A stretch of 36,456 nt of DNA from a virus. Lineage: Duplodnaviria > Caudoviricetes. Where the stretch lies: the IMG/VR virus record IMGVR_UViG_3300020403_000036, positions 1 through 36,456 of that record; one strand, given 5' to 3'. Below are positions 10,250 through 35,390 of the stretch, in pieces (positions within the stretch are counted from its first letter, which is position 1; the number at the start of each line of letters is the position of its first letter). A model generated the notes under the pieces. It was not told where the DNA came from and ran no database searches. It saw only the letters and a list, made by a program, of their open reading frames with translations. The position numbers and the translations under genes were made by a program.

Positions 10250-12685
10250 TTATCTTGGCTCAAATTCTGCCAAGTCAAAGCCATCTAAACTATCCTCATT
10301 TGATTCAAAACTCATAGGAGGTAGATTGTTTTTACGCTGGTCTATTAGTTTAGATTGCTGTGTGTTTTGCTGACTAATTCTATCAGCTTTAGCCTTCTCT
10401 CTGTTGTTCTCTCTTTTCTGCAAAGAATTAGCCTCAATACCTTTGAGTTGCATGTTCATGTCAAACTCAAGTTGCATAAGCTGTGATTTAAGAGCAGCTT
10501 CATTCTTCATCTTTTCAATATCAAATGCAATCTCAGCTTGCTTAAGCTCCATCTTAGAACGCTTCTCAGCTTCAATCTTAGCCAGTGCGGCTTCTGCAGC
10601 CATAGCTTGTGATTGCTGATTTACTTGCGCTTGAGTCTGTTGTTGCATCATACTTTTCTGAATGTCGTTTTCTTCTTTCTTCTTTCTTTTTAATTTAAGA
10701 AGTTGATTAGCAACCTTCAGGTTCTTAACATCTCGAATATCAATTGCATCTTCCAGATGTATCTGGTCTCTTGACAGGGCGGTTTGTATATTCGCTTCTA
10801 ACTGAGCCTTTTCTTCTTCATCTGGAGAAAGCTCAATAAATATTCCAAAGTCGTACAGATATAAATCTTTAGTATCTTCAAGTGTGGCTACATTATACTT
10901 CCCTATCTGCATTGCAAACTCTTCCTTGAACTCAGAGTATTCCAATATATCTGATATTCTACAAGACAGACCTTCTGCAAGTGCCTTAGTTATTTGTAAG
11001 CTAGCATCTAATACATGTCTTGTTGCTGTATTCGAGTTTGCTGCTGCAAGTTTTTGTAAACCAACCAATGAATCTGGGTCAATCTTACTTCCATCTCTAG
11101 CCTCATTAAGCCCTGTTACATCACGCATCATGTTGAGATAGTGATTGTAACTACCAATTAAACTAGCAATCTTTGCTTGACCAGAGTTACTTGTAAGCTG
11201 CTGAATTGGAACTCTTGCGTTGTTAAACTCTCCATCTTGAGTATAGCTTCTTCCTACAACAGAACCTGTTTGAAAGTAAAGTCTTAATGCATCTTCTGGA
11301 TTATAGACTCCACCATTACCAAGGTCAACCTCACTAAGTCCATCGGCATCTATAAACACACCATCTGGAACTACCTTAGATATAACTTGCTGTAACTTTA
11401 AATGCGTAATCTGAATCAGGTCAGCAAATGTAATCATTCTTCTAACCAAAGATTCAATTACACCCTTGTACATTCTTGGAGCATTAACAATATATGGAGA
11501 CGAAACGTGCTGTGAAGCTGACTTTGGTCTAACCATATTCTTAGCCATCTCCCATTTAAGCATAATGTTTGTACCCATAACCATTACGCCTTCATACCAT
11601 ACTTCAATTTTCTTTTCAATTCTTTCGAAGTTTCCGTCAGCCATCATTTCTTCTGGAGGATTGAACGAATCATCTTTTTCAATCATACGCTGCCCACCAT
11701 TGTCAAGCATTTTCTTTTTGTAAACAAAGCTTTTGTCTGTTTTGTAGCTAAAGTAAAGTAGTGTGGCTGTGTCTCTATTAAACATAGAGTTTTCATAAAA
11801 CCTTGAAACATTGTAGTAATCGTACCAGCTCTGGCTGTATTTAGATATATTTTCTAAATCTTCGTTTGTTAATGTGGGGTCAATCTTTCTAAGCTCTGTT
11901 GTTGGAACAGTCTTTACTTCTCCCCAATAAAAACAATCTCTAAAGTTATTATCTTCAGTGTAACTATAAACTAAGTTAGCTGGGTCTACATAGTCAACCT
12001 TAACTCCAGCGCCAGGTAAAAAGCTATGTTTCGCAGCTCCTATACCTATAGTTGTCAAATCATAGTTTATTCTCTTTTTGATTTCATCATAATGATTTTC
12101 ACCAAGCACTGTGTTAATTGCTTGCTCCTGAGCTATCTCAATAGATGGCTTATACTTTAGCTGCATGTGCAGAGCTAACTCTTCATCACTTTCTGGAATG
12201 TCTTGTTGTGGTACAGCAAATGCATCTATACCAAAGCTTTCGTTCATTTGCTCCAAGAAATCTTTTGCAACCATATCGGTTTCAATCATGTCCTGATAGG
12301 CAATTCTTTTTTCTGCAGACATAGCGTCTTGTGCATATGTGTTGATAGAAAACAATCTATCAGACATTCCATTTACAACTATGTCTACAAACTTTGGTAT
12401 AATTGGTATCGGAGTCCAATCTAAGTTTAGATAAGACAAATCTCCGTCTACTGCTAATTCGTTTTTGTATTTTCCTACAGACTGCTCCCCTCGAGAATAT
12501 AATCTCAACCTGTGGAAATCATCTAATTGTCTGTAGAACTTACAGTCACCATTACCACGTCTGAACCATTCATATTGAATAGCTTGACCAACTTGGAGAC
12601 CGAACTCCATAGAAGCCTTCTCTGAGTCGCTAACAAATTGACCTGGAAACGATGCGCTATTAACTGATATGGTTACTTCCTTCAT
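10250..12685 (-). CDS. Portal protein, 811 aa
   Basis: Follows the terminase; PIIPKFVDIVVNG and TGLNEARDG motifs and a Gln-rich coiled-coil C-terminus like crAss/P22-type portals. Confidence 0.85.
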   Translation of the reverse strand: MKEVTISVNSASFPGQFVSDSEKASMEFGLQVGQAIQYEWFRRGNGDCKFYRQLDDFHRLRLYSRGEQSVGKYKNELAVDGDLSYLNLDWTPIPIIPKFVDIVVNGMSDRLFSINTYAQDAMSAEKRIAYQDMIETDMVAKDFLEQMNESFGIDAFAVPQQDIPESDEELALHMQLKYKPSIEIAQEQAINTVLGENHYDEIKKRINYDLTTIGIGAAKHSFLPGAGVKVDYVDPANLVYSYTEDNNFRDCFYWGEVKTVPTTELRKIDPTLTNEDLENISKYSQSWYDYYNVSRFYENSMFNRDTATLLYFSYKTDKSFVYKKKMLDNGGQRMIEKDDSFNPPEEMMADGNFERIEKKIEVWYEGVMVMGTNIMLKWEMAKNMVRPKSASQHVSSPYIVNAPRMYKGVIESLVRRMITFADLIQITHLKLQQVISKVVPDGVFIDADGLSEVDLGNGGVYNPEDALRLYFQTGSVVGRSYTQDGEFNNARVPIQQLTSNSGQAKIASLIGSYNHYLNMMRDVTGLNEARDGSKIDPDSLVGLQKLAAANSNTATRHVLDASLQITKALAEGLSCRISDILEYSEFKEEFAMQIGKYNVATLEDTKDLYLYDFGIFIELSPDEEEKAQLEANIQTALSRDQIHLEDAIDIRDVKNLKVANQLLKLKRKKKEENDIQKSMMQQQTQAQVNQQSQAMAAEAALAKIEAEKRSKMELKQAEIAFDIEKMKNEAALKSQLMQLEFDMNMQLKGIEANSLQKRENNREKAKADRISQQNTQQSKLIDQRKNNLPPMSFESNEDSLDGFDLAEFEPR

Positions 12686-14928: not shown

Positions 14929-15193
14929 ACCCCTGTAGTTTTTGTTCTGTTTTTTCTGTAGTTTTTCCAGCTAACATATTCTTCTCATTTTCTATTCTTG
15001 TTAAGATTTCAAATGCATCGAATATAGCTAGCTTCTTTGTAGCAGCTGCATTCTTTAATCTATCAGCAGCTAACTCTGGAGACAAATCATCTAGTCCCTT
15101 TTTAATAATATCTTCCTTAGCAACCTTAATCAGCTCCTTTACAGCTGACTCTCCAGCTTTTATAATATCTTCCTTTAACTTTCTAACTTCCAT
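14906..15193 (-). CDS. Small helical protein, candidate terminase small subunit, 95 aa
   Basis: Immediately upstream of and overlapping terL; role inferred from position only. Confidence 0.45.
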   Translation of the reverse strand: MEVRKLKEDIIKAGESAVKELIKVAKEDIIKKGLDDLSPELAADRLKNAAATKKLAIFDAFEILTRIENEKNMLAGKTTEKTEQKLQGFAERRSK

Positions 15194-15716
15194 CTACAAC
15201 AAGAGCTATATCATTAGACTTCATCCTATAAAGAACCTCGCCATCAACATCAAATTCATATTCGCTCTCTGGCGTAAAACATATTCTATCCCCAACATTC
15301 ACACCAGAATCCTCAAGAAATTTATTGCTGTATCTAATATAACCAATTAAATCTTCATCTGGTTTTACAAAACAAAAATCACCCAGAGTATGCCAACCAT
15401 CTTTGTTTTTATACATAAAGAATTGATTGCGCTCTAAGAAAAACGTTTTATCTTTTAAGAAACTAAATCCACTTCTTTCCTTCCCACTCATGTCATAGTA
15501 AACCTTGAATACATTGTGATGAACAAGAAGTGTATCTCCTTTTTCAATAGGTCCAGTGTATCCAGAGGGGCACTCTATAACTTTAGCGTAACGATTAGAT
15601 GCTTTGTGGTCTTCTTGGGAAGTACTTGTTATGAAATCTATATCTCCAATTTTTTTCACATTATCATACCGCCTGCCACCAACAGGTTCAACGATAAAAT
15701 AAAAAGGAGATTTCAT
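15183..15716 (-). CDS. Tandem GroES-like (co-chaperonin fold) protein, 177 aa
   Basis: Two GroES-like halves: FIVEP...AKVIECP...IEKGDTLLV and LGDFCFVKP...GVNVGDRICF...EFDVDGEVLYRMKSNDI. Confidence 0.6.
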   Translation of the reverse strand: MKSPFYFIVEPVGGRRYDNVKKIGDIDFITSTSQEDHKASNRYAKVIECPSGYTGPIEKGDTLLVHHNVFKVYYDMSGKERSGFSFLKDKTFFLERNQFFMYKNKDGWHTLGDFCFVKPDEDLIGYIRYSNKFLEDSGVNVGDRICFTPESEYEFDVDGEVLYRMKSNDIALVVDGS

Positions 15717-16822: not shown

Positions 16823-16948
16823 TTATCTACCCTGACCTCTATATTTTTGTTTGTATGATGACTGCCCTCTTGAAGCATTCTTAGAATGAACCCCTGGTCT
16901 TTTCTTTTTTTGAGAAATTCTAGGCCCATCAAACGTCGCTCTTGCCAT
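16823..16948 (-). CDS. Small basic protein ending YRGQGR, 41 aa (below ORF-track cutoff)
   Basis: Manual translation MARATFDGPRISQKKKRPGVHSKNASRGQSSYKQKYRGQGR; fills the gap and overlaps the holin stop. The KYRGQG ending is familiar from small aquatic-phage proteins. Confidence 0.7.
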   Translation of the reverse strand: MARATFDGPRISQKKKRPGVHSKNASRGQSSYKQKYRGQGR

Positions 16949-17330
16949 TCTTTTTATTTTTTTCCCATGTGCGCCCTACAAAATACGCTCCATAGACTGT
17001 GATTAATAATGATTGAAAAATTGGTATGTAGTCTTTTTGAACCTGGAAACCACCTATGTTTCCATCCGTAAACGCTAACAAAGTAAACATGGTTGTAAGA
17101 AACACCATGACAAGTGGCCGTATGTTCTTAGACAAAAAGCTATCGCTTTGCATGTCATACTTCCATCTTTCTGTAACTTGTGACTGAGCGTCATTATCTG
17201 CTTTCTCTAAAAGCTCCTGTATTTTATGTTTAGCATCTAGTCTTTCTTCTTCTGTTGTTGTTACCTTATCAATAACATCCCCAATATCTTTTACAAGACC
17301 GCCTGTTAAAAGTGAAATTAATTTCTTCAT
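16929..17330 (-). CDS. Holin (GTA/3TM-holin-like), 133 aa
   Basis: RW..DM.SDSFLSKNIRP motif, hydrophobic segments, YFVGRTWEK and a basic tail; adjacent to the endolysin. Confidence 0.8.
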   Translation of the reverse strand: MKKLISLLTGGLVKDIGDVIDKVTTTEEERLDAKHKIQELLEKADNDAQSQVTERWKYDMQSDSFLSKNIRPLVMVFLTTMFTLLAFTDGNIGGFQVQKDYIPIFQSLLITVYGAYFVGRTWEKNKKNGKSDV

Positions 17331-17788
17331 ATCACTCTGTATTTTGTTTTACCATCAATCCTTTCGGCTCTTAAGCATCTTCCTCTATTTCTGTCTGGCG
17401 AAACATAAGATACATGCACCCAGTCTGGGTTATCATCATCACCAAACTCCCATATCATTTGGTCAAAGTCTAAATGCTTTTTTATGTATTCAAACATTTC
17501 AGCGTTTGTTTTGTGACCATAGCTATCGTCAATATCAATTGCTCTACCCTGACAATGCTGGCTTGAAGAACTTCCGCCAACAGCCTTATTTAAATCTGGA
17601 ACTCTTAGAAAAGAATTTATTTTTATAGGACCTCTTGTCCATTTTCTTAATGGCTCAAAAATGTTTTCAGCCACAACTTGCATGTTTGTAAATTGATATG
17701 TATCTGGAATATTATCAATACCAAGTCTTAGAGCAGTAACAGAACGAGTACCCTCTTGATAGCTTATATGTTCGCTAATTCTTTCCAT
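17327..17788 (-). CDS. Endolysin, peptidase M15A family (Zn D-Ala-D-Ala peptidase fold), 153 aa
   Basis: INSFLR...LNKAVGG...SQHCQGRAIDI and WVHVSY zinc-binding motifs. Confidence 0.9.
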   Translation of the reverse strand: MERISEHISYQEGTRSVTALRLGIDNIPDTYQFTNMQVVAENIFEPLRKWTRGPIKINSFLRVPDLNKAVGGSSSSQHCQGRAIDIDDSYGHKTNAEMFEYIKKHLDFDQMIWEFGDDDNPDWVHVSYVSPDRNRGRCLRAERIDGKTKYRVI

Positions 17789-17827
17789 TTAGCAAAGTCC
17801 GCCGCAAAACAAACAAATCTCGCACAT
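17789..17827 (-). CDS. 12-aa Cys-rich micropeptide MCEICLFCGGLC
   Basis: ATG 2 nt after the upstream stop; its TAA directly abuts the endolysin ATG, so it fills the intergenic gap; CxxCxxCxxxC spacing. Confidence 0.55.
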   Translation of the reverse strand: MCEICLFCGGLC

Positions 17828-17829
17828 AA

Positions 17830-19044
17830 TTATAATCTTAAGTTTATTCCAAACCTAGTGTCATGTATTTCAGTGTCCCAAAATCTAGTATACTCACTCT
17901 CTATAAATACACCTAAACGATTTGTAATTTTCCATCCAAGGATTAATCCTGCTTGCCAATCTTCCCATTGCTCTCCCTCAAGTAAATCATTATGACCTCC
18001 TTTACCCCAAGAGTTTCTGTGAAGATAAGAAAAATCTTCGTTGCCTTTTACATACTTATGATGAGGGAGTATGTAGTTTGCGTAAGCATGAGTCCAAAAA
18101 TTATTGCTGTAATGATAAAAATCAAATCCAACTATAGGAGCTATTTCTCCAAAACTATCTAGTTCTGCCCACTTTTCCCTATTATATCTATTCATTAATC
18201 TACCAAAGATTCTATTTCTAAAATCTAAATCAGTATAAGCAACAGTTCTTCCTTGGTCATCAACCCAAACATAATCAAAAACCTGGGATGTTGTCCCATC
18301 TGCATTGTATATAGTTGACACATATGGCTTGTCTTGATATCCATACAAATATCCTAAAGTATACCATGGATTCACTGGAACTTCGACTTGCTGAACATCA
18401 TTAGGAGTGTCGTCATTAAAAACATCTATAATTTCAGTTTCATTTAACCATATTTCTATCGGATTATACCCATAAGGAGTTTGATGAGTACGATAAATAC
18501 CACCAGCTGATATGCTAAACTTTTTACCAATAGGCAATCGTAATCTTACCTCTGCCGATTGATATTCGAAACCCACGTTTCCCTGCTCTCTTTGCTCTAA
18601 CTTTACGATGTGGTATTTCCCTGTGTGTCTTAAAAAATATCTTGTGTTTACAAACTCTTCCCCTCTTTCTCTCTCTTGCTCATAGTGAAACAAATATTCA
18701 AATCCCTTTACTGCAGCAGTTGGTGCAGATAAAGCTTTGTTCATTTCAGTTCCATCGTAAAAGTTTGGTTTAACTTCGTAGTCAAATCGAGCTAGTTTTC
18801 TAATTCCGAATCCAACTCTGTAGTCATTTGGATAGTATTCGGTAACATCTATAACTTTCGGAATCCCATACAAATCTCCATCAGCAGGTTTATCTACAAA
18901 GTAATCTTTAGTAGTTTTTTCGTATGCGTTTGACACATTACCTGCTACATAAATAGATGAGTATTTGAAAAACTCATCATAAGCTTTTTTAAATATTTGC
19001 CCCTGTGCTACAAAGCACCATAGTAAAAGTATTAAGTATTTCAT
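17830..19044 (-). CDS. Secreted aromatic-rich protein, candidate outer-membrane beta-barrel, 404 aa
   Basis: Sec signal peptide MKYLILLLWCFVAQG, alternating beta-strand patterns (WQAGLILGWKI, LGVFIESEY) and terminal strand RFGINLRL. Confidence 0.6.
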   Translation of the reverse strand: MKYLILLLWCFVAQGQIFKKAYDEFFKYSSIYVAGNVSNAYEKTTKDYFVDKPADGDLYGIPKVIDVTEYYPNDYRVGFGIRKLARFDYEVKPNFYDGTEMNKALSAPTAAVKGFEYLFHYEQERERGEEFVNTRYFLRHTGKYHIVKLEQREQGNVGFEYQSAEVRLRLPIGKKFSISAGGIYRTHQTPYGYNPIEIWLNETEIIDVFNDDTPNDVQQVEVPVNPWYTLGYLYGYQDKPYVSTIYNADGTTSQVFDYVWVDDQGRTVAYTDLDFRNRIFGRLMNRYNREKWAELDSFGEIAPIVGFDFYHYSNNFWTHAYANYILPHHKYVKGNEDFSYLHRNSWGKGGHNDLLEGEQWEDWQAGLILGWKITNRLGVFIESEYTRFWDTEIHDTRFGINLRL

Positions 19045-19391
19045 TAAAATTTATTTTCTATTAATTTATCAATCTCCTTCTGTAGGTCCTCTAACTTACA
19101 CTTAAGTTTTAGTGTAATGTCAGCTTCCCATCTTTCAACCTCATTACCATTTTCAAATAGTATGATGGTGGGTAAATATACAATATTATTTTCTTCAAAA
19201 AAATCTTTGTGCTTTCCTATGTCGTAATTAAACACATTTACATCGTCTAATTTTTTGATATTTAAATTAGCTTCTTTCGTAAATTCAGCAGACGCTTGTA
19301 CAATACTTATCCCGTTCTCATGCTGGGCTTGCACAAAAACAAAACATAGAATAAATATGTATTTAACGAGCTTCATACAATCTGTCTTCAA
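19044..19391 (-). CDS. Secreted thioredoxin-fold protein lacking CxxC, ~110 aa
   Basis: Signal peptide MKLVKYIFILCFVFVQA; NIVYLPTIILFENGNEVERW matches the thioredoxin cis-Pro/beta-hairpin motif; no CxxC. Confidence 0.65.
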   Translation of the reverse strand: MKTDCMKLVKYIFILCFVFVQAQHENGISIVQASAEFTKEANLNIKKLDDVNVFNYDIGKHKDFFEENNIVYLPTIILFENGNEVERWEADITLKLKCKLEDLQKEIDKLIENKF

Positions 19392-19656
19392 TTTTATTTA
19401 AAGACTCTTTAATTTCTTGCACATCAACTTTAATCCCATCAACATCTTGTTGAGTAAGCATTATGGTTTTACGAACTAATTCATCTTTGTATTGAAACTC
19501 TTGCTGTGTGATAATTGGTTTTGGCTCCTGCATTGCTAAAGCTATATCTGCTTTCAGGGTAAAGTATACGGTCAACAAGGAACTTATGCCAAAACCTAAT
19601 GCGATTAACTCCTTAATGGTTAGTGAAAACTTCGAGCTTGGGGTTAAATCTGACAT
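19363..19656 (-). CDS. Single-TM protein with C-terminal coiled coil, 97 aa
   Basis: Hydrophobic LIALGFGISSLLTVYFTL, then heptad VDGIKVDVQEIKESLNKIEDRLY. Confidence 0.7.
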   Translation of the reverse strand: MSDLTPSSKFSLTIKELIALGFGISSLLTVYFTLKADIALAMQEPKPIITQQEFQYKDELVRKTIMLTQQDVDGIKVDVQEIKESLNKIEDRLYEAR

Positions 19657-26561: not shown

Positions 26562-26784
26562 CAGTCACTGGGTCTCCAGCGAGTACAACATCATAGGCGC
26601 TTCTCTTGTCGTAATATATTACATCATCGGCTTTTACTTGAGTAACTAAATCCCCAACCGTTTTTATCCTTCCCTTTCCATAGCGCATTTGACTTACGTC
26701 TTCACCTGAAAGAATAAGACCTGAGTCTGTTTTGACTTCTTCTTCTACTTTGTCAATGACAATAAAGTTATTTATGGCTCTCAT
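26527..26784 (-). CDS. groES: Co-chaperonin GroES, 85 aa
   Basis: Mobile loop KTDSGLIL, G...TVG, VK.DDVIYY, DVV; ATGA-coupled to groEL. Confidence 0.9.
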   Translation of the reverse strand: MRAINNFIVIDKVEEEVKTDSGLILSGEDVSQMRYGKGRIKTVGDLVTQVKADDVIYYDKRSAYDVVLAGDPVTVIQLKDVVIVL

Positions 26785-28379
26785 TTTCTTTTAAGTGTTA
26801 CTATTGCGTTTGTTGAAAGTATAGTTGTTGCTACAGATACTGCATTGCGTAGTGCGTTCTTAGTTACTTTAGCTGGGTCAATGATTCCCATCTTAAACAT
26901 ATCTCCGTACTTTTCTTCTTTTACATCGTATCCATAGTTCCAATCCACAATTTGAAAATCATTGTAGTATATCTTATTGAAATCTTTGCCAGCGTTCAAA
27001 AGTATTTGATGTGCTGGAGCTTTAAGGGCAGATGTAAAAATTGCGTGAGCAATTTTTTTTGATTTTTCGGACTTATCTTCATCTAATATGATGCATGATT
27101 TGTACAAAGCAATCCCTCCACCAGGCACAATCCCCTCTTCAAGAGCGGAGCGTACAGCACAAACAGCGTCATCAACTCTATCGTATAGCTCTTTCTGCTC
27201 CACATCAGAGTTGCCTCCAACGTAAATAATACCGATACCGCCTGTAAGACTTGCGATTCTTTCCTTCAAGAAGTCTTTGTCGCCTTTTACCTTAGCATTG
27301 TTATGCTGATGCCATAGCTCATCAACTCTCTTCTGGATATCGTCGTCGTTTCCTTTACCTCTTATGATGATGGTATCTTCACGACCTACAATAACTTTCT
27401 CAGCAAACCCAAGGTCATCCATAGAAATCAAACCTAAATCATCTCCTGTGCTTTCTGAAAAGTATTTTGCCCCAACGGCCAGCGCTATGTCGTTCATAAG
27501 CTCATGGCTTCTGTATCCGAACTGCGGAGGAATGATGTGACAAATCTTAAGACCATTACGAACTACGTTTGCAGCAAGTGTGTTAATCACATTCTGCGAG
27601 CAGTTGCCGATAATCAAAAGCTTTTTGTTCTCGTTGATTACTGGCTTTAGTATTCTTTCTATGCTAACGACATTAGAAATCTCTTGGTCTGCACAAAGCA
27701 CATGCACATCCTCAAGGATGCACTCATCACGCTTGTGGTCGTTGACAAACAGATGTGAGGTGTAACCTCTATCAATCCGTATACCCTCTGTAACTTCTGA
27801 GAATGTATCAGAGGTCTGTGACCTCTCAACTGTAACGATGCCGTTCTCACCCACCTTTTTGTAAGCTTCAGCTATCAACTTCCCAACCTTAGAGTCGTTA
27901 TTAGCAGAAACAGTAGCTACATCATCTAATCTTCGTCCGCTAACTTTCTTTGACTTCTTGTCCAGAAACTTCACAACCTCCTCTGACAATCTGGTAATCT
28001 CACGAATAACCTCCGTGACATTCACATCTTCATTAGACAAAAGCTCCATACCGTACTTAATCATAGCCTCGGTAAGAACAATCGCAGTCGTTGTGCCGTC
28101 ACCCGCACTCACTGCCGTTCTATCGGCAGCGTCTTTCATAATACGAACAGCCAGGTTCTCAACAGAATCCTCAAGTGCTATTGACCTTGCTACTGTAACA
28201 CCATCCTTTGTGATGGTGACTCCTCGTGTATGGTTTTCTGATTCGATGAGTACTGTGTTTCCTCGTGGGCCGAGTGTACTCTTGACTGCTTCTGAAATCT
28301 TTTCGATTCCATTTAGCAACTTGTCACGACCTTCTTGGTCGAACACAAGTTCTTTTGGTGTGTAACTTAATTCATTCAT
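26781..28379 (-). CDS. groEL: Chaperonin GroEL, 532 aa
   Basis: VKSTLGPRG, ITKDGVTVA, AGDGTTTA, EEGIVPGGG and GIIDPAKV motifs. Confidence 0.97.
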   Translation of the reverse strand: MNELSYTPKELVFDQEGRDKLLNGIEKISEAVKSTLGPRGNTVLIESENHTRGVTITKDGVTVARSIALEDSVENLAVRIMKDAADRTAVSAGDGTTTAIVLTEAMIKYGMELLSNEDVNVTEVIREITRLSEEVVKFLDKKSKKVSGRRLDDVATVSANNDSKVGKLIAEAYKKVGENGIVTVERSQTSDTFSEVTEGIRIDRGYTSHLFVNDHKRDECILEDVHVLCADQEISNVVSIERILKPVINENKKLLIIGNCSQNVINTLAANVVRNGLKICHIIPPQFGYRSHELMNDIALAVGAKYFSESTGDDLGLISMDDLGFAEKVIVGREDTIIIRGKGNDDDIQKRVDELWHQHNNAKVKGDKDFLKERIASLTGGIGIIYVGGNSDVEQKELYDRVDDAVCAVRSALEEGIVPGGGIALYKSCIILDEDKSEKSKKIAHAIFTSALKAPAHQILLNAGKDFNKIYYNDFQIVDWNYGYDVKEEKYGDMFKMGIIDPAKVTKNALRNAVSVATTILSTNAIVTLKRK

Positions 28380-34331: not shown

Positions 34332-35390
34332 ATGTGTATAATTATTGTAAAACAAGACGACGACAAAGTAATCAAGAGAGATACCTTGATTGCTTCATCA
34401 GCTAAAAACCCTCATGGATTGGGTGTTCTTTGGCTGGACAAGTGGAACATTGAATACTTTGACAGCACAGAATACGAGGTGCTACTTACAAAGCGACCAT
34501 TCATTGCCCACTTCAGATATGCAACGGTTGGTAAGGTGTCGAGAGAAAACTGCCACCCGTTCAACATCAACAAGAATGAAGTGCTGTTTCAGAACGGAAC
34601 TATCTACAATCTTGGGGATGCAGACACAACAGACACAGAAGCTATGGCTCGGATACTCAAGAACATACCCAAGAAACATTGGAGAGATGTGCTTGAGATG
34701 AATGACTGCAGGTTTGTAACAGCAGACCTGAAGAACAAAACATTCGAGTTGTACAACGAGCAGGATTGGGTACAGCGTAATGGAATATATTACAGCAAGA
34801 AGAATGTGCTTGACCTTGTGCCTGTTGCAGTGTATGGTACACTAAGGAAAGACTATTCAAACTACTCAAGATACCTTCGCACTTCAGCTTATGTAGGCAA
34901 GGGTTACACCAAAGACAGGTATCCACTTGTCATAACTGGACTACCCTATCTGCTAAACAAGAAGGGTGTAGGTTTCAATGTAGAAGTTGATGTGTTTCTG
35001 GTTGACCAGTACACACTATCTCAACTTGATATTCTTGAGGGACACCCTAATTGGTACAAGCGAGAGAAGATTAAGATTGAAATGGAGAACGAAAGCTTCA
35101 TCAATGCATGGATATACTTCAATGACACTGAAGACACTGGAATATACCACGAGAGATACAATCAGAACATACTACCAAGCTACGACAGATTCAATACTTG
35201 GGACGCATGGGATGATGATGACTTTGATGATGACTTCGGAACAGCTACATACGAGCCGAAGGTTACAGAAGAAAGGTGTTCTTGCGGGGACACACTTCAC
35301 TTTGACCCATACTATCAAGACGCTCAGTATTGTATGAGTTGTGAGGACTATATATATAATGATGATAATAAAATTTTAGAACATGAATAA
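34332..35390 (+). CDS. Class II glutamine amidotransferase fused to a gamma-glutamylcyclotransferase (AIG2-like) domain, 352 aa
   Basis: N-terminal nucleophile MC, NPHG.G, AHFRYAT, NCHPF, QNG, TDTE; then VAVYGTLRK and LDILEGHPNWYKR; C-terminal CSCG...CMSC. Confidence 0.85.
   Translation: MCIIIVKQDDDKVIKRDTLIASSAKNPHGLGVLWLDKWNIEYFDSTEYEVLLTKRPFIAHFRYATVGKVSRENCHPFNINKNEVLFQNGTIYNLGDADTTDTEAMARILKNIPKKHWRDVLEMNDCRFVTADLKNKTFELYNEQDWVQRNGIYYSKKNVLDLVPVAVYGTLRKDYSNYSRYLRTSAYVGKGYTKDRYPLVITGLPYLLNKKGVGFNVEVDVFLVDQYTLSQLDILEGHPNWYKREKIKIEMENESFINAWIYFNDTEDTGIYHERYNQNILPSYDRFNTWDAWDDDDFDDDFGTATYEPKVTEERCSCGDTLHFDPYYQDAQYCMSCEDYIYNDDNKILEHE

What the first reader, a model, noticed from the sequence alone, without database searches (positions are those of the whole stretch)
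17789..17827. 12-aa micropeptide that is a bare CxxCxxCxxxC motif, coupled to the endolysin
Seen: MCEICLFCGGLC* fills the 41-nt gap between the beta-barrel-like gene and the endolysin, and its TAA abuts the endolysin ATG. Four of 12 residues are Cys. Known: CxxCxxCxxxC is the bacterial-ferredoxin [4Fe-4S] binding motif, and synthetic peptides of similar length can bind clusters. Inference: a natural minimal Fe-S or metal-binding peptide, a Zn-endolysin modulator, or a Cys-sensing translational coupler for lysis. Gene callers would miss it.
Basis: partly seen in the sequence, partly recalled or inferred. Interest (0 to 1): 0.7.

Follow-up and report, generated by a model that had tools for sequence, protein, structure and literature searches.

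The report
Four-cysteine micropeptide hiding in signal peptides
Uncultured marine phages that likely infect flavobacteria carry a conserved gene for a four-cysteine peptide of only 11 to 14 amino acids, either standing alone or written in a second reading frame inside the signal peptide of a neighbouring gene, and the peptide is predicted to bind an iron-sulfur cluster or another metal, which would make it about as small as chemists' synthetic minimal cluster-binding peptides.

Summary
The ORF is real: minus strand 17827-17789, MCEICLFCGGLC*, with its TAA abutting the endolysin ATG. It belongs to a new family. Of 80 relatives picked by the neighbouring barrel protein, 52 carry a 4-Cys sORF of 11-14 aa (55 sense vs 7 antisense vs 2-5 simulated). 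Changes are mainly synonymous, and 53 of 55 have A at -3.

The conserved core is CxxCxxC (26 of 28, 3.2 expected) plus a fourth Cys.

The peptide is not tied to the endolysin: 13 of 53 lie directly upstream of it, 19 downstream. In 32 loci it is nested in signal-peptide DNA, always in the same frame relation, across six host families in all loci fetched. Standalone and nested forms never co-occur, and identical peptides occur in both states. Cys codons read as Val/Ala in the +1 frame, which makes this dual coding easy.

Best reading: a trans-acting metal-thiolate peptide, [4Fe-4S] favoured (about 0.5, untested). It is accessory; no partner gene was found. No paper or earlier scan note on it was found.

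The parts
17789..17827 (-). 4-Cys micropeptide gene, MCEICLFCGGLC*, standalone form; extra Gly codon relative to the 11-aa relatives
   Evidence: A at -3; an RNA-library contig covers 17696-17886 with no differences (presence only)
17830..19044 (-). 404-aa signal-peptide-bearing, outer-membrane beta-barrel-like protein; marker of the module; in some relatives its own signal peptide hosts the micropeptide
   Evidence: pLDDT 70, strand-rich; porin/autotransporter barrels, TM only 0.2-0.3
17327..17788 (-). Peptidase_M15 endolysin, start abutting the micropeptide stop
   Evidence: phrog_894 E 1.7e-25; PF08291 E 1.3e-13
16929..17330 (-). holin
   Evidence: phrog_3427 E 1.1e-28; PF11351 just under its cut-off (24.6 vs 24.8 bits)
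19044..19391 (-). Thioredoxin-fold protein with signal peptide, invariant Pro at the expected cis-Pro loop and no CxxC (ATG start probably 19376); its paralogs are the commonest hosts of the nested micropeptide
19363..19656 (-). 97-aa protein with an apparent N-terminal membrane segment and coiled coil, travelling with the thioredoxin-like gene
   Evidence: sequence; synteny; no family hit

Best explanation
This is a conserved 12-codon gene of a new family of four-cysteine micropeptides in the lysis region of uncultured marine phages that likely infect flavobacteria; its product likely stays in the host cytoplasm, likely acts in trans, and is predicted to bind a [4Fe-4S] cluster or another thiophilic metal through a CxxCxxC core plus a fourth cysteine. 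Shown: the ORF family, selection on the peptide frame, the conserved core, the free placement within the module, and the nesting in signal peptides. The nesting follows from the genetic code: Cys codons read one base on give only Val or Ala, and most other common residues of the peptide give mainly hydrophobic or small residues, so the same DNA can serve as a signal-peptide core. The gene has therefore been gained by or released from exported-protein genes several times. Inferred: translation (A at -3, coding signature), cytoplasmic location (no export signal), metal binding (motif only). Speculative: purpose, most likely a late-expressed chelator or decoy that ties up host Fe-S/iron and so tunes the host's redox or membrane state before lysis; it is accessory.
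For: Selection in the peptide frame: among 27 distinct standalone 11-mer DNAs 56% of pairwise codon differences are synonymous vs 10% and 15% in the other frames; among 10 nested DNAs 79% vs 16% in the host frame (this set was picked by a Cys pattern). Unbiased census: 52 of 80 loci, with stops TAA 13, TGA 2, TAG 1 and Cys codons TGC 33/TGT 31 in 16 distinct standalone DNAs. A at -3 in 53 of 55 vs 34.5% background, a positive initiation determinant in Flavobacterium (PMC6847099 abstract). CxxCxxC in 26 of 28 vs 3.2 expected; last Cys terminal or penultimate in 28 of 28. CxxCxxC supplies three ligands of low-potential [4Fe-4S] clusters (PMC9059760 passages). Cx3Cx2Cx2C, the spacing of synthetic 11-16-mer maquettes that reconstitute [4Fe-4S] (PMC10946529 passages), occurs in 7 of 28. 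Trans action: position relative to the endolysin is free; standalone (20 loci) and nested (32 loci) forms never share a locus; identical peptides occur in both states (L242 vs L245/L246; L269 vs L387 and L446 vs L480); six host families.
Against: No binding or translation data. The fourth Cys varies in spacing (Cx2, Cx3, Cx4 before the triad, or x1-x3 after it), whereas PMC10946529 states that Cys spacing is immutable for maquette cluster formation, and 2 of 28 peptides lack CxxCxxC. Only 7 of 28 have the ferredoxin-like C[IVLM]xCGxC; 22 of 28 have CP[FIVL]C, more like Zn/rubredoxin knuckles (resemblance recalled). An exposed cluster degrades quickly in O2, and the presumed host is aerobic. 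The peptide is absent from 28 of 80 loci and no family member was seen in 4 records at least 98% complete. No partner gene tracks it among 86 families in 17 records.
Confidence: 0.5

Rival explanations
1. A thiol/disulfide redox peptide: two CxxC pairs cycle between dithiol and disulfide, acting as a redox buffer or as the missing CxxC of the co-encoded Cys-less thioredoxin-fold protein.
For: 28 of 28 peptides have at least one CxxC; the module's thioredoxin-fold proteins keep an invariant Pro but show N-x-x-N in the consensus where CxxC is expected; 31 of 53 peptides lie inside or within 30 nt after a trx-like gene.
Against: The trx-like proteins carry signal peptides and the micropeptide none, so they would sit in different compartments; trx-like genes are also present in peptide-less genomes; redox cycling does not need the CxxCxxC triad.
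Confidence: 0.15
2. A Zn buffer or cysteine-switch inhibitor dedicated to the Zn-dependent endolysin.
For: 13 of 53 copies abut an M15 endolysin start, including two different M15 types.
Against: Same-type endolysins occur without the peptide in 16 loci; amidase-type loci have it in 4 of 9; 19 copies lie downstream of the endolysin. The endolysin has no substrate in the cytoplasm (established knowledge).
Confidence: 0.1
3. A cis-acting, Cys-sensing translational coupler or leader peptide for lysis genes.
For: Tight spacing to neighbours (offsets -7 to +12); 4 Cys codons in about 11.
Against: 33 of 53 copies begin downstream of a host start and end inside the host gene, so they cannot couple anything; downstream neighbours vary (two endolysin types and at least four other genes); spacing and non-Cys residues are conserved rather than Cys runs; no folding signal (MFE z mean 0.2-0.4).
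Confidence: 0.08
4. A precursor of a modified (RiPP-like) cyclic or cross-linked peptide.
For: Size and Cys density fit; the window has a GATase/GGCT gene (34332-35390).
Against: No leader peptide; no modifying enzyme tracks the peptide among 86 gene families.
Confidence: 0.07
5. A non-functional by-product of signal-peptide DNA (Val/Ala codons give Cys in the other frame), with standalone copies as decaying leftovers.
For: The code makes such frames easy; given the host protein sequence, a nested 4-Cys ORF arises in 5% (trx) to 13% (lipoprotein) of synonymous resamplings; standalone +1 frames still look hydrophobic.
Against: Nested ORFs observed in 11 of 78 trx 5' ends vs 0.58 expected and 11 of 15 lipoprotein ends vs 1.44 expected (kin inflate these counts). 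The peptide frame is more conserved than the host frame. All 25 C-P steps in 17 nested DNAs require GTC/GCC, 4% and 6% of Val/Ala codons. Standalone copies keep Cys, start and stop while their +1 frame has lost its start or gained stops or charges.
Confidence: 0.05

Closest known systems
Bacterial-type ferredoxin motif CxxCxxCxxxCP and synthetic ferredoxin maquettes (PMC9059760, PMC10946529; passages read)
   Same: CxxCxxC triad in 26 of 28 peptides; maquette spacing Cx3Cx2Cx2C in 7 of 28; similar length to the 11-16-mer maquettes.
   Different: No ferredoxin domain, no terminal CP, fourth Cys variable; natural and ribosomal rather than designed; cluster binding untested.
CPxCG-type one-domain zinc-finger small proteins such as Brz (PMC2253796; search listing and start of abstract only)
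   Same: Four Cys, CP-x-C knuckle-like turns (22 of 28), tiny overlooked genes.
   Different: Those proteins are several times longer with two separated knuckles (recalled); here the Cys pairs are only 1-4 residues apart.
Metallothioneins and phytochelatins (recalled)
   Same: About 36% Cys, short, no folded domain expected.
   Different: About half the length of the smallest metallothioneins I recall (not confirmed by search); hydrophobic rather than polar spacers; phage-encoded; ribosomal, unlike phytochelatins.
Nested lysis genes such as lambda Rz/Rz1 (recalled)
   Same: A small gene embedded in another frame of a gene in the lysis region.
   Different: Here the embedded gene lies only in the signal-peptide-coding segment, occurs in six host families (two of them thioredoxin-fold paralogs), also stands alone, and has no export signal of its own.
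Pachyviridae/Pervagoviridae flavobacterial podoviruses (PMC8776804; passages read)
   Same: Terminase 47% identical to Flavobacterium elemo phages, 37% to Cellulophaga phi18:3, phi38:1 and Calle, 33% to Gundel; chaperonin genes.
   Different: No GenBank phage has the barrel or trx-like proteins, so no cultured member of the peptide-bearing group was found.

Membership tests
Bacterial-type [4Fe-4S] ferredoxin | CxxCxxC triad | tested here: met
   26 of 28 distinct census peptides, including the window's
Bacterial-type [4Fe-4S] ferredoxin | Conserved CxxCxxCxxxCP motif | tested here: not met
   CxxCxxCxxxC in 1 of 28; the window peptide ends at Cys with no Pro
Bacterial-type [4Fe-4S] ferredoxin | Folded domain supplying a distal fourth Cys | tested here: not met
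   ORFs are 11-14 aa (two of 17-18 aa) with a conserved start and stop
Bacterial-type [4Fe-4S] ferredoxin | Binds a redox-active [4Fe-4S] cluster | not testable with these tools
   needs reconstitution, UV-vis, EPR
CPxCG zinc-finger micro-proteins | Two CxxC knuckles separated by a hairpin-forming spacer (definition recalled) | tested here: not met
   spacings are Cx2-4Cx2-3Cx1-3C
Metallothionein | High Cys content and small size | tested here: met
   36% Cys over 63 distinct peptides
Metallothionein | Forms metal-thiolate clusters | not testable with these tools
   needs metal titration
Amino-acid-sensing leader peptide | Fixed position upstream of the regulated gene with an alternative RNA structure | tested here: not met
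   free position, 33 of 53 nested, no folding signal
Embedded o-spanin (Rz1-like) | Embedded gene encodes an exported lipoprotein | tested here: not met
   peptides of 11-14 aa have no export signal or lipobox-plus-body

The most novel reading that the evidence does not exclude
A natural ferredoxin maquette: an 11-14-residue ribosomal peptide that carries a [4Fe-4S] cluster, as small as the minimal synthetic designs, used by marine flavobacterial phages against host iron-sulfur metabolism. It was born from, and repeatedly re-housed in, signal-peptide DNA because Cys codons read as Val/Ala one base over, making signal peptides a general nursery and hiding place for Cys-rich micro-genes.
Probability: 0.25. 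Interest if true: 0.93.

Novelty: new variant of a known kind. Interest (0 to 1): 0.78.

Why it matters
It is a well-supported gene family of 11-14 codons, with 63 distinct natural variants in hand. If it binds Fe-S or metal, it would be a natural counterpart of the synthetic minimal maquettes used to model early Fe-S proteins, and the variants are cheap to synthesise and test at once. Whatever the cofactor, it shows a micro-gene kept under selection while moving between intergenic DNA and the second frame of signal peptides in six host families, with a simple codon-level reason. That predicts a searchable blind spot: Cys-rich genes hidden under signal peptides elsewhere.

Tried and rejected
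Full ferredoxin motif as the family signature: rejected (1 of 28). Fusion by readthrough or frameshift to the downstream gene: rejected, offsets and partners vary. N-terminal extension of the endolysin as the cause of conservation: rejected, the endolysin follows at -7, 0 and +1. DNA/RNA element instead of peptide: a Bacteroidetes-type -7 promoter motif (consensus recalled) was in 2 of 33 distinct contexts, and MFE z < -2 in 2 of 33; the sigma-70/terminator scan was at chance level. Host chromosomal copy: 0 hits for the MC[DE]-type pattern in 185,579 species genomes (one subfamily pattern only); the barrel was found only on 2 MAG contigs. Cultured carriers: none; MW202828 positions 15000-60850 showed no family-like ORF. 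Partner gene by co-occurrence: none perfect among 86 families in 9 with / 8 without records; 4 of the 8 are only 80-83% complete, and genes cut by 20-kb stretch ends were missed. Pattern hits outside the module (30 of 54, 15 of 75, 13 unrelated plus 5 off-frame of 120) were treated as chance. RNA run X20 holds only a small share of the region and cannot show transcription. The barrel fold search gave only weak TM scores. The peptide is below the size limit of the structure and complex tools, so no model was made. Earlier scan notes: nothing on this family; the one note returned concerns a different, secreted peptide and was not used.

Full report
Observation. The minus strand at 17827..17789 reads MCEICLFCGGLC*. 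It starts 2 nt after the stop of a 404-aa gene, and its TAA abuts the ATG of a Peptidase_M15 endolysin, which is followed by a holin. The window is a 36.5-kb virus record, about 60% complete. Its terminase is 47% identical to Flavobacterium elemo phages and 33-37% to Cellulophaga and Tenacibaculum phages, some of which are placed in Pachyviridae and Pervagoviridae (PMC8776804 passages). A flavobacterial host is therefore inferred. Runs holding the region are marine or seawater metagenomes where labelled.

Conservation at the same place. Of the best 80 of 316 viral loci with a relative of the 404-aa protein, 5 have the peptide directly behind it. One is identical to the window over the barrel; the other four are 11-mers (MCEICLFCGLC, MCEFCIYCGLC, MCEFCIHCGLC, MCELCIFCGLC), two of them in front of a different endolysin type. 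The window's extra Gly is a one-codon insertion, also seen in L193 and one metagenome hit.

Coding signature. A pattern scan gave 120 stretches. Of these, 101 were 11-mers of the family; I left out 5 off-frame hits, 13 unrelated hits and the one 12-mer. In the 56 standalone copies (27 distinct DNAs), 56% of pairwise codon differences are synonymous in the peptide frame against 10% and 15% in the other two, and the endolysin follows at -7, 0 or +1, that is in every frame. This set was chosen by its Cys codons, so I ran an unbiased census.

Unbiased census. The same 80 loci were refetched with up to 10 kb flanks (1.12 Mb). They hold 55 sense-strand ORFs of 8-20 aa with at least 4 Cys, 7 antisense, and 5, 2, 4 in Markov simulations. 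A at -3 occurs in 53 of the 55, against 34.5% of other ATGs; A-3 is a positive initiation determinant in F. johnsoniae (PMC6847099, abstract). I dropped the two with C at -3, which lie away from the module. That leaves 53 peptides in 52 loci, all within one module of membrane protein, thioredoxin-like protein, barrel, endolysin, holin and lipoprotein. Among 28 distinct census peptides, 26 contain CxxCxxC (3.2 expected on shuffling), 1 has CxxCxxCxxxC, 7 have Cx3Cx2Cx2C, 22 have CP[FIVL]C, and the last Cys is terminal (18) or penultimate (10). Further scans put 102 of 102 metagenome hits, 24 of 54 and 60 of 75 viral hits in the same module, raising the family to 63 distinct peptides, 61 of them 11-14 aa (the later ones pattern-biased).

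Nesting. 33 of the 53 census copies lie inside another gene, in the DNA for its signal peptide. Over all loci the host frame is always the peptide's +1 frame (195 of 195 occurrences, with contigs fetched twice counted twice). The hosts fall into six clusters: two thioredoxin-like paralogs, a lipoprotein, another small lipoprotein-like protein, the barrel itself, and a 221-aa protein. The code explains the fit: Cys codons read one base on give only Val or Ala, and Ile, Phe, Gly, Asn and Asp give mostly hydrophobic or small residues.

The nested copies are not a by-product. In 10 nested DNAs, 79% of differences are synonymous for the peptide but only 16% for the host. Resampling synonymous host codons predicts 0.58 nested ORFs in 78 trx 5' ends (11 seen), 1.44 in 15 lipoprotein ends (11 seen) and 0.02 in 64 barrel ends (0 seen). 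All 25 C-P steps require GTC or GCC, which are 4% and 6% of Val and Ala codons. Standalone (20 loci) and nested (32 loci) forms never share a locus, and 28 loci have neither (Fisher p 8e-6, inflated by kinship). One locus, L245, has two nested copies. Identical peptides occur in both states (L242 vs L245/L246; L269 vs L387 and L446 vs L480). On a barrel tree (63 distinct sequences, midpoint root, supports not shown) standalone, nested and absent states are interleaved. The direction of each switch is not established.

Not coupled to the endolysin. 13 of 53 copies are within 30 nt upstream of an endolysin, 20 are further upstream, 19 are downstream, and 1 locus has none. The commonest endolysin type occurs with the peptide in 43 loci and without it in 16. 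No RNA-fold or promoter signal was found.

Accessory. I fetched 17 of the 28 records (9 with, 8 without the peptide; the last 441 bases of G012 were not fetched). None of the 8 showed a family member elsewhere, 4 of them at least 98% complete; G014 has an unrelated-looking 19-aa CxxCxxC ORF. No gene family among 86 tracked the peptide.

Neighbours. The trx-like protein has a thioredoxin fold with an invariant Pro and no CxxC, and a signal peptide. The micropeptide has no export signal, so these neighbours are probably landlords rather than partners.

Mechanism. Free position, one copy per module and conserved Cys geometry point to a product acting in trans through its thiols. CxxCxxC is the triad that supplies three ligands of low-potential [4Fe-4S] clusters, the fourth coming from elsewhere (PMC9059760 passages). 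Synthetic peptides of 11-16 residues with Cx3Cx2Cx2C reconstitute such clusters (PMC10946529 passages). I put about 0.5 on metal-thiolate binding in trans, roughly half of that on [4Fe-4S]. Against it: the fourth Cys moves, that paper calls the spacing immutable and the clusters O2-labile, 2 of 28 peptides lack the triad, and CPxC turns also suit Zn (recalled). The purpose, tying up host Fe-S or iron late in infection, is speculation. An RNA-library contig covers the ORF with no differences, which shows presence only.

Novelty. Six family peptide strings were found in no paper, and topic searches returned nothing whose title or abstract start concerned this family (listings only). A review of phage small proteins has no mention of cysteine, zinc or iron in its main text (PMC11323111). 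One passage of PMC6696605 added nothing. The global phage small-gene paper was not held and smORF catalogues were not opened, so the ORFs may be listed there unannotated. No cultured phage carries the module, and the one subfamily pattern tried was absent from species genomes. It fails membership of ferredoxins, CPxCG zinc fingers, leader peptides and embedded spanins, but may work like a ferredoxin maquette or a miniature metallothionein. Verdict: a real, undescribed micro-gene family with an unusual habit of hiding in signal peptides; function predicted, not shown.

Noticed in passing
window 16823-16948 (-): 41-aa very basic ORF ending ...KQKYRGQGR, overlapping the holin end; 45 relatives in the fetched loci. 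Resembles small basic proteins I recall from cyanophages; function not examined.
   Followed up: partly
window 19044-19656 (-) and relatives: Signal-peptide-bearing thioredoxin-fold proteins without CxxC, paired with a 97-aa membrane/coiled-coil protein, often in two paralogous pairs around a phage-specific outer-membrane barrel: an unexplained envelope module.
   Followed up: partly
window 26781-28379 (-), 15183-15716 (-), 34332-35390 (+): Phage GroEL, a GroES-like protein, and a GATase/gamma-glutamylcyclotransferase gene.
   Followed up: no
L512:6406 onward (+): Five-Cys, 16-aa variant nested in a lipoprotein-like signal sequence on a MAG contig that is probably a binned phage.
   Followed up: partly
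L524 minus strand near 982 (G014): 19-aa ORF with CxxCxxC in a genome lacking the family peptide, away from the module.
   Followed up: no
L187; L382, L402, L413: Four-Cys ORFs MCDSCPICGYGC and MVSCPFCLVCPCS outside the recognised module; possibly distant members or chance.
   Followed up: no
L018:3001-4143 (G002): The barrel gene has an internal TAA while the nested micropeptide is intact.
   Followed up: no
L270, L383, L436 and others: A 46-77-aa Trp-rich ORF (MWKLTK...) often follows the standalone peptide or the barrel; unannotated.
   Followed up: no
window 11015-11059 (+): Cys-rich short ORF antisense to the portal gene; counted among the antisense controls, probably chance.
   Followed up: no
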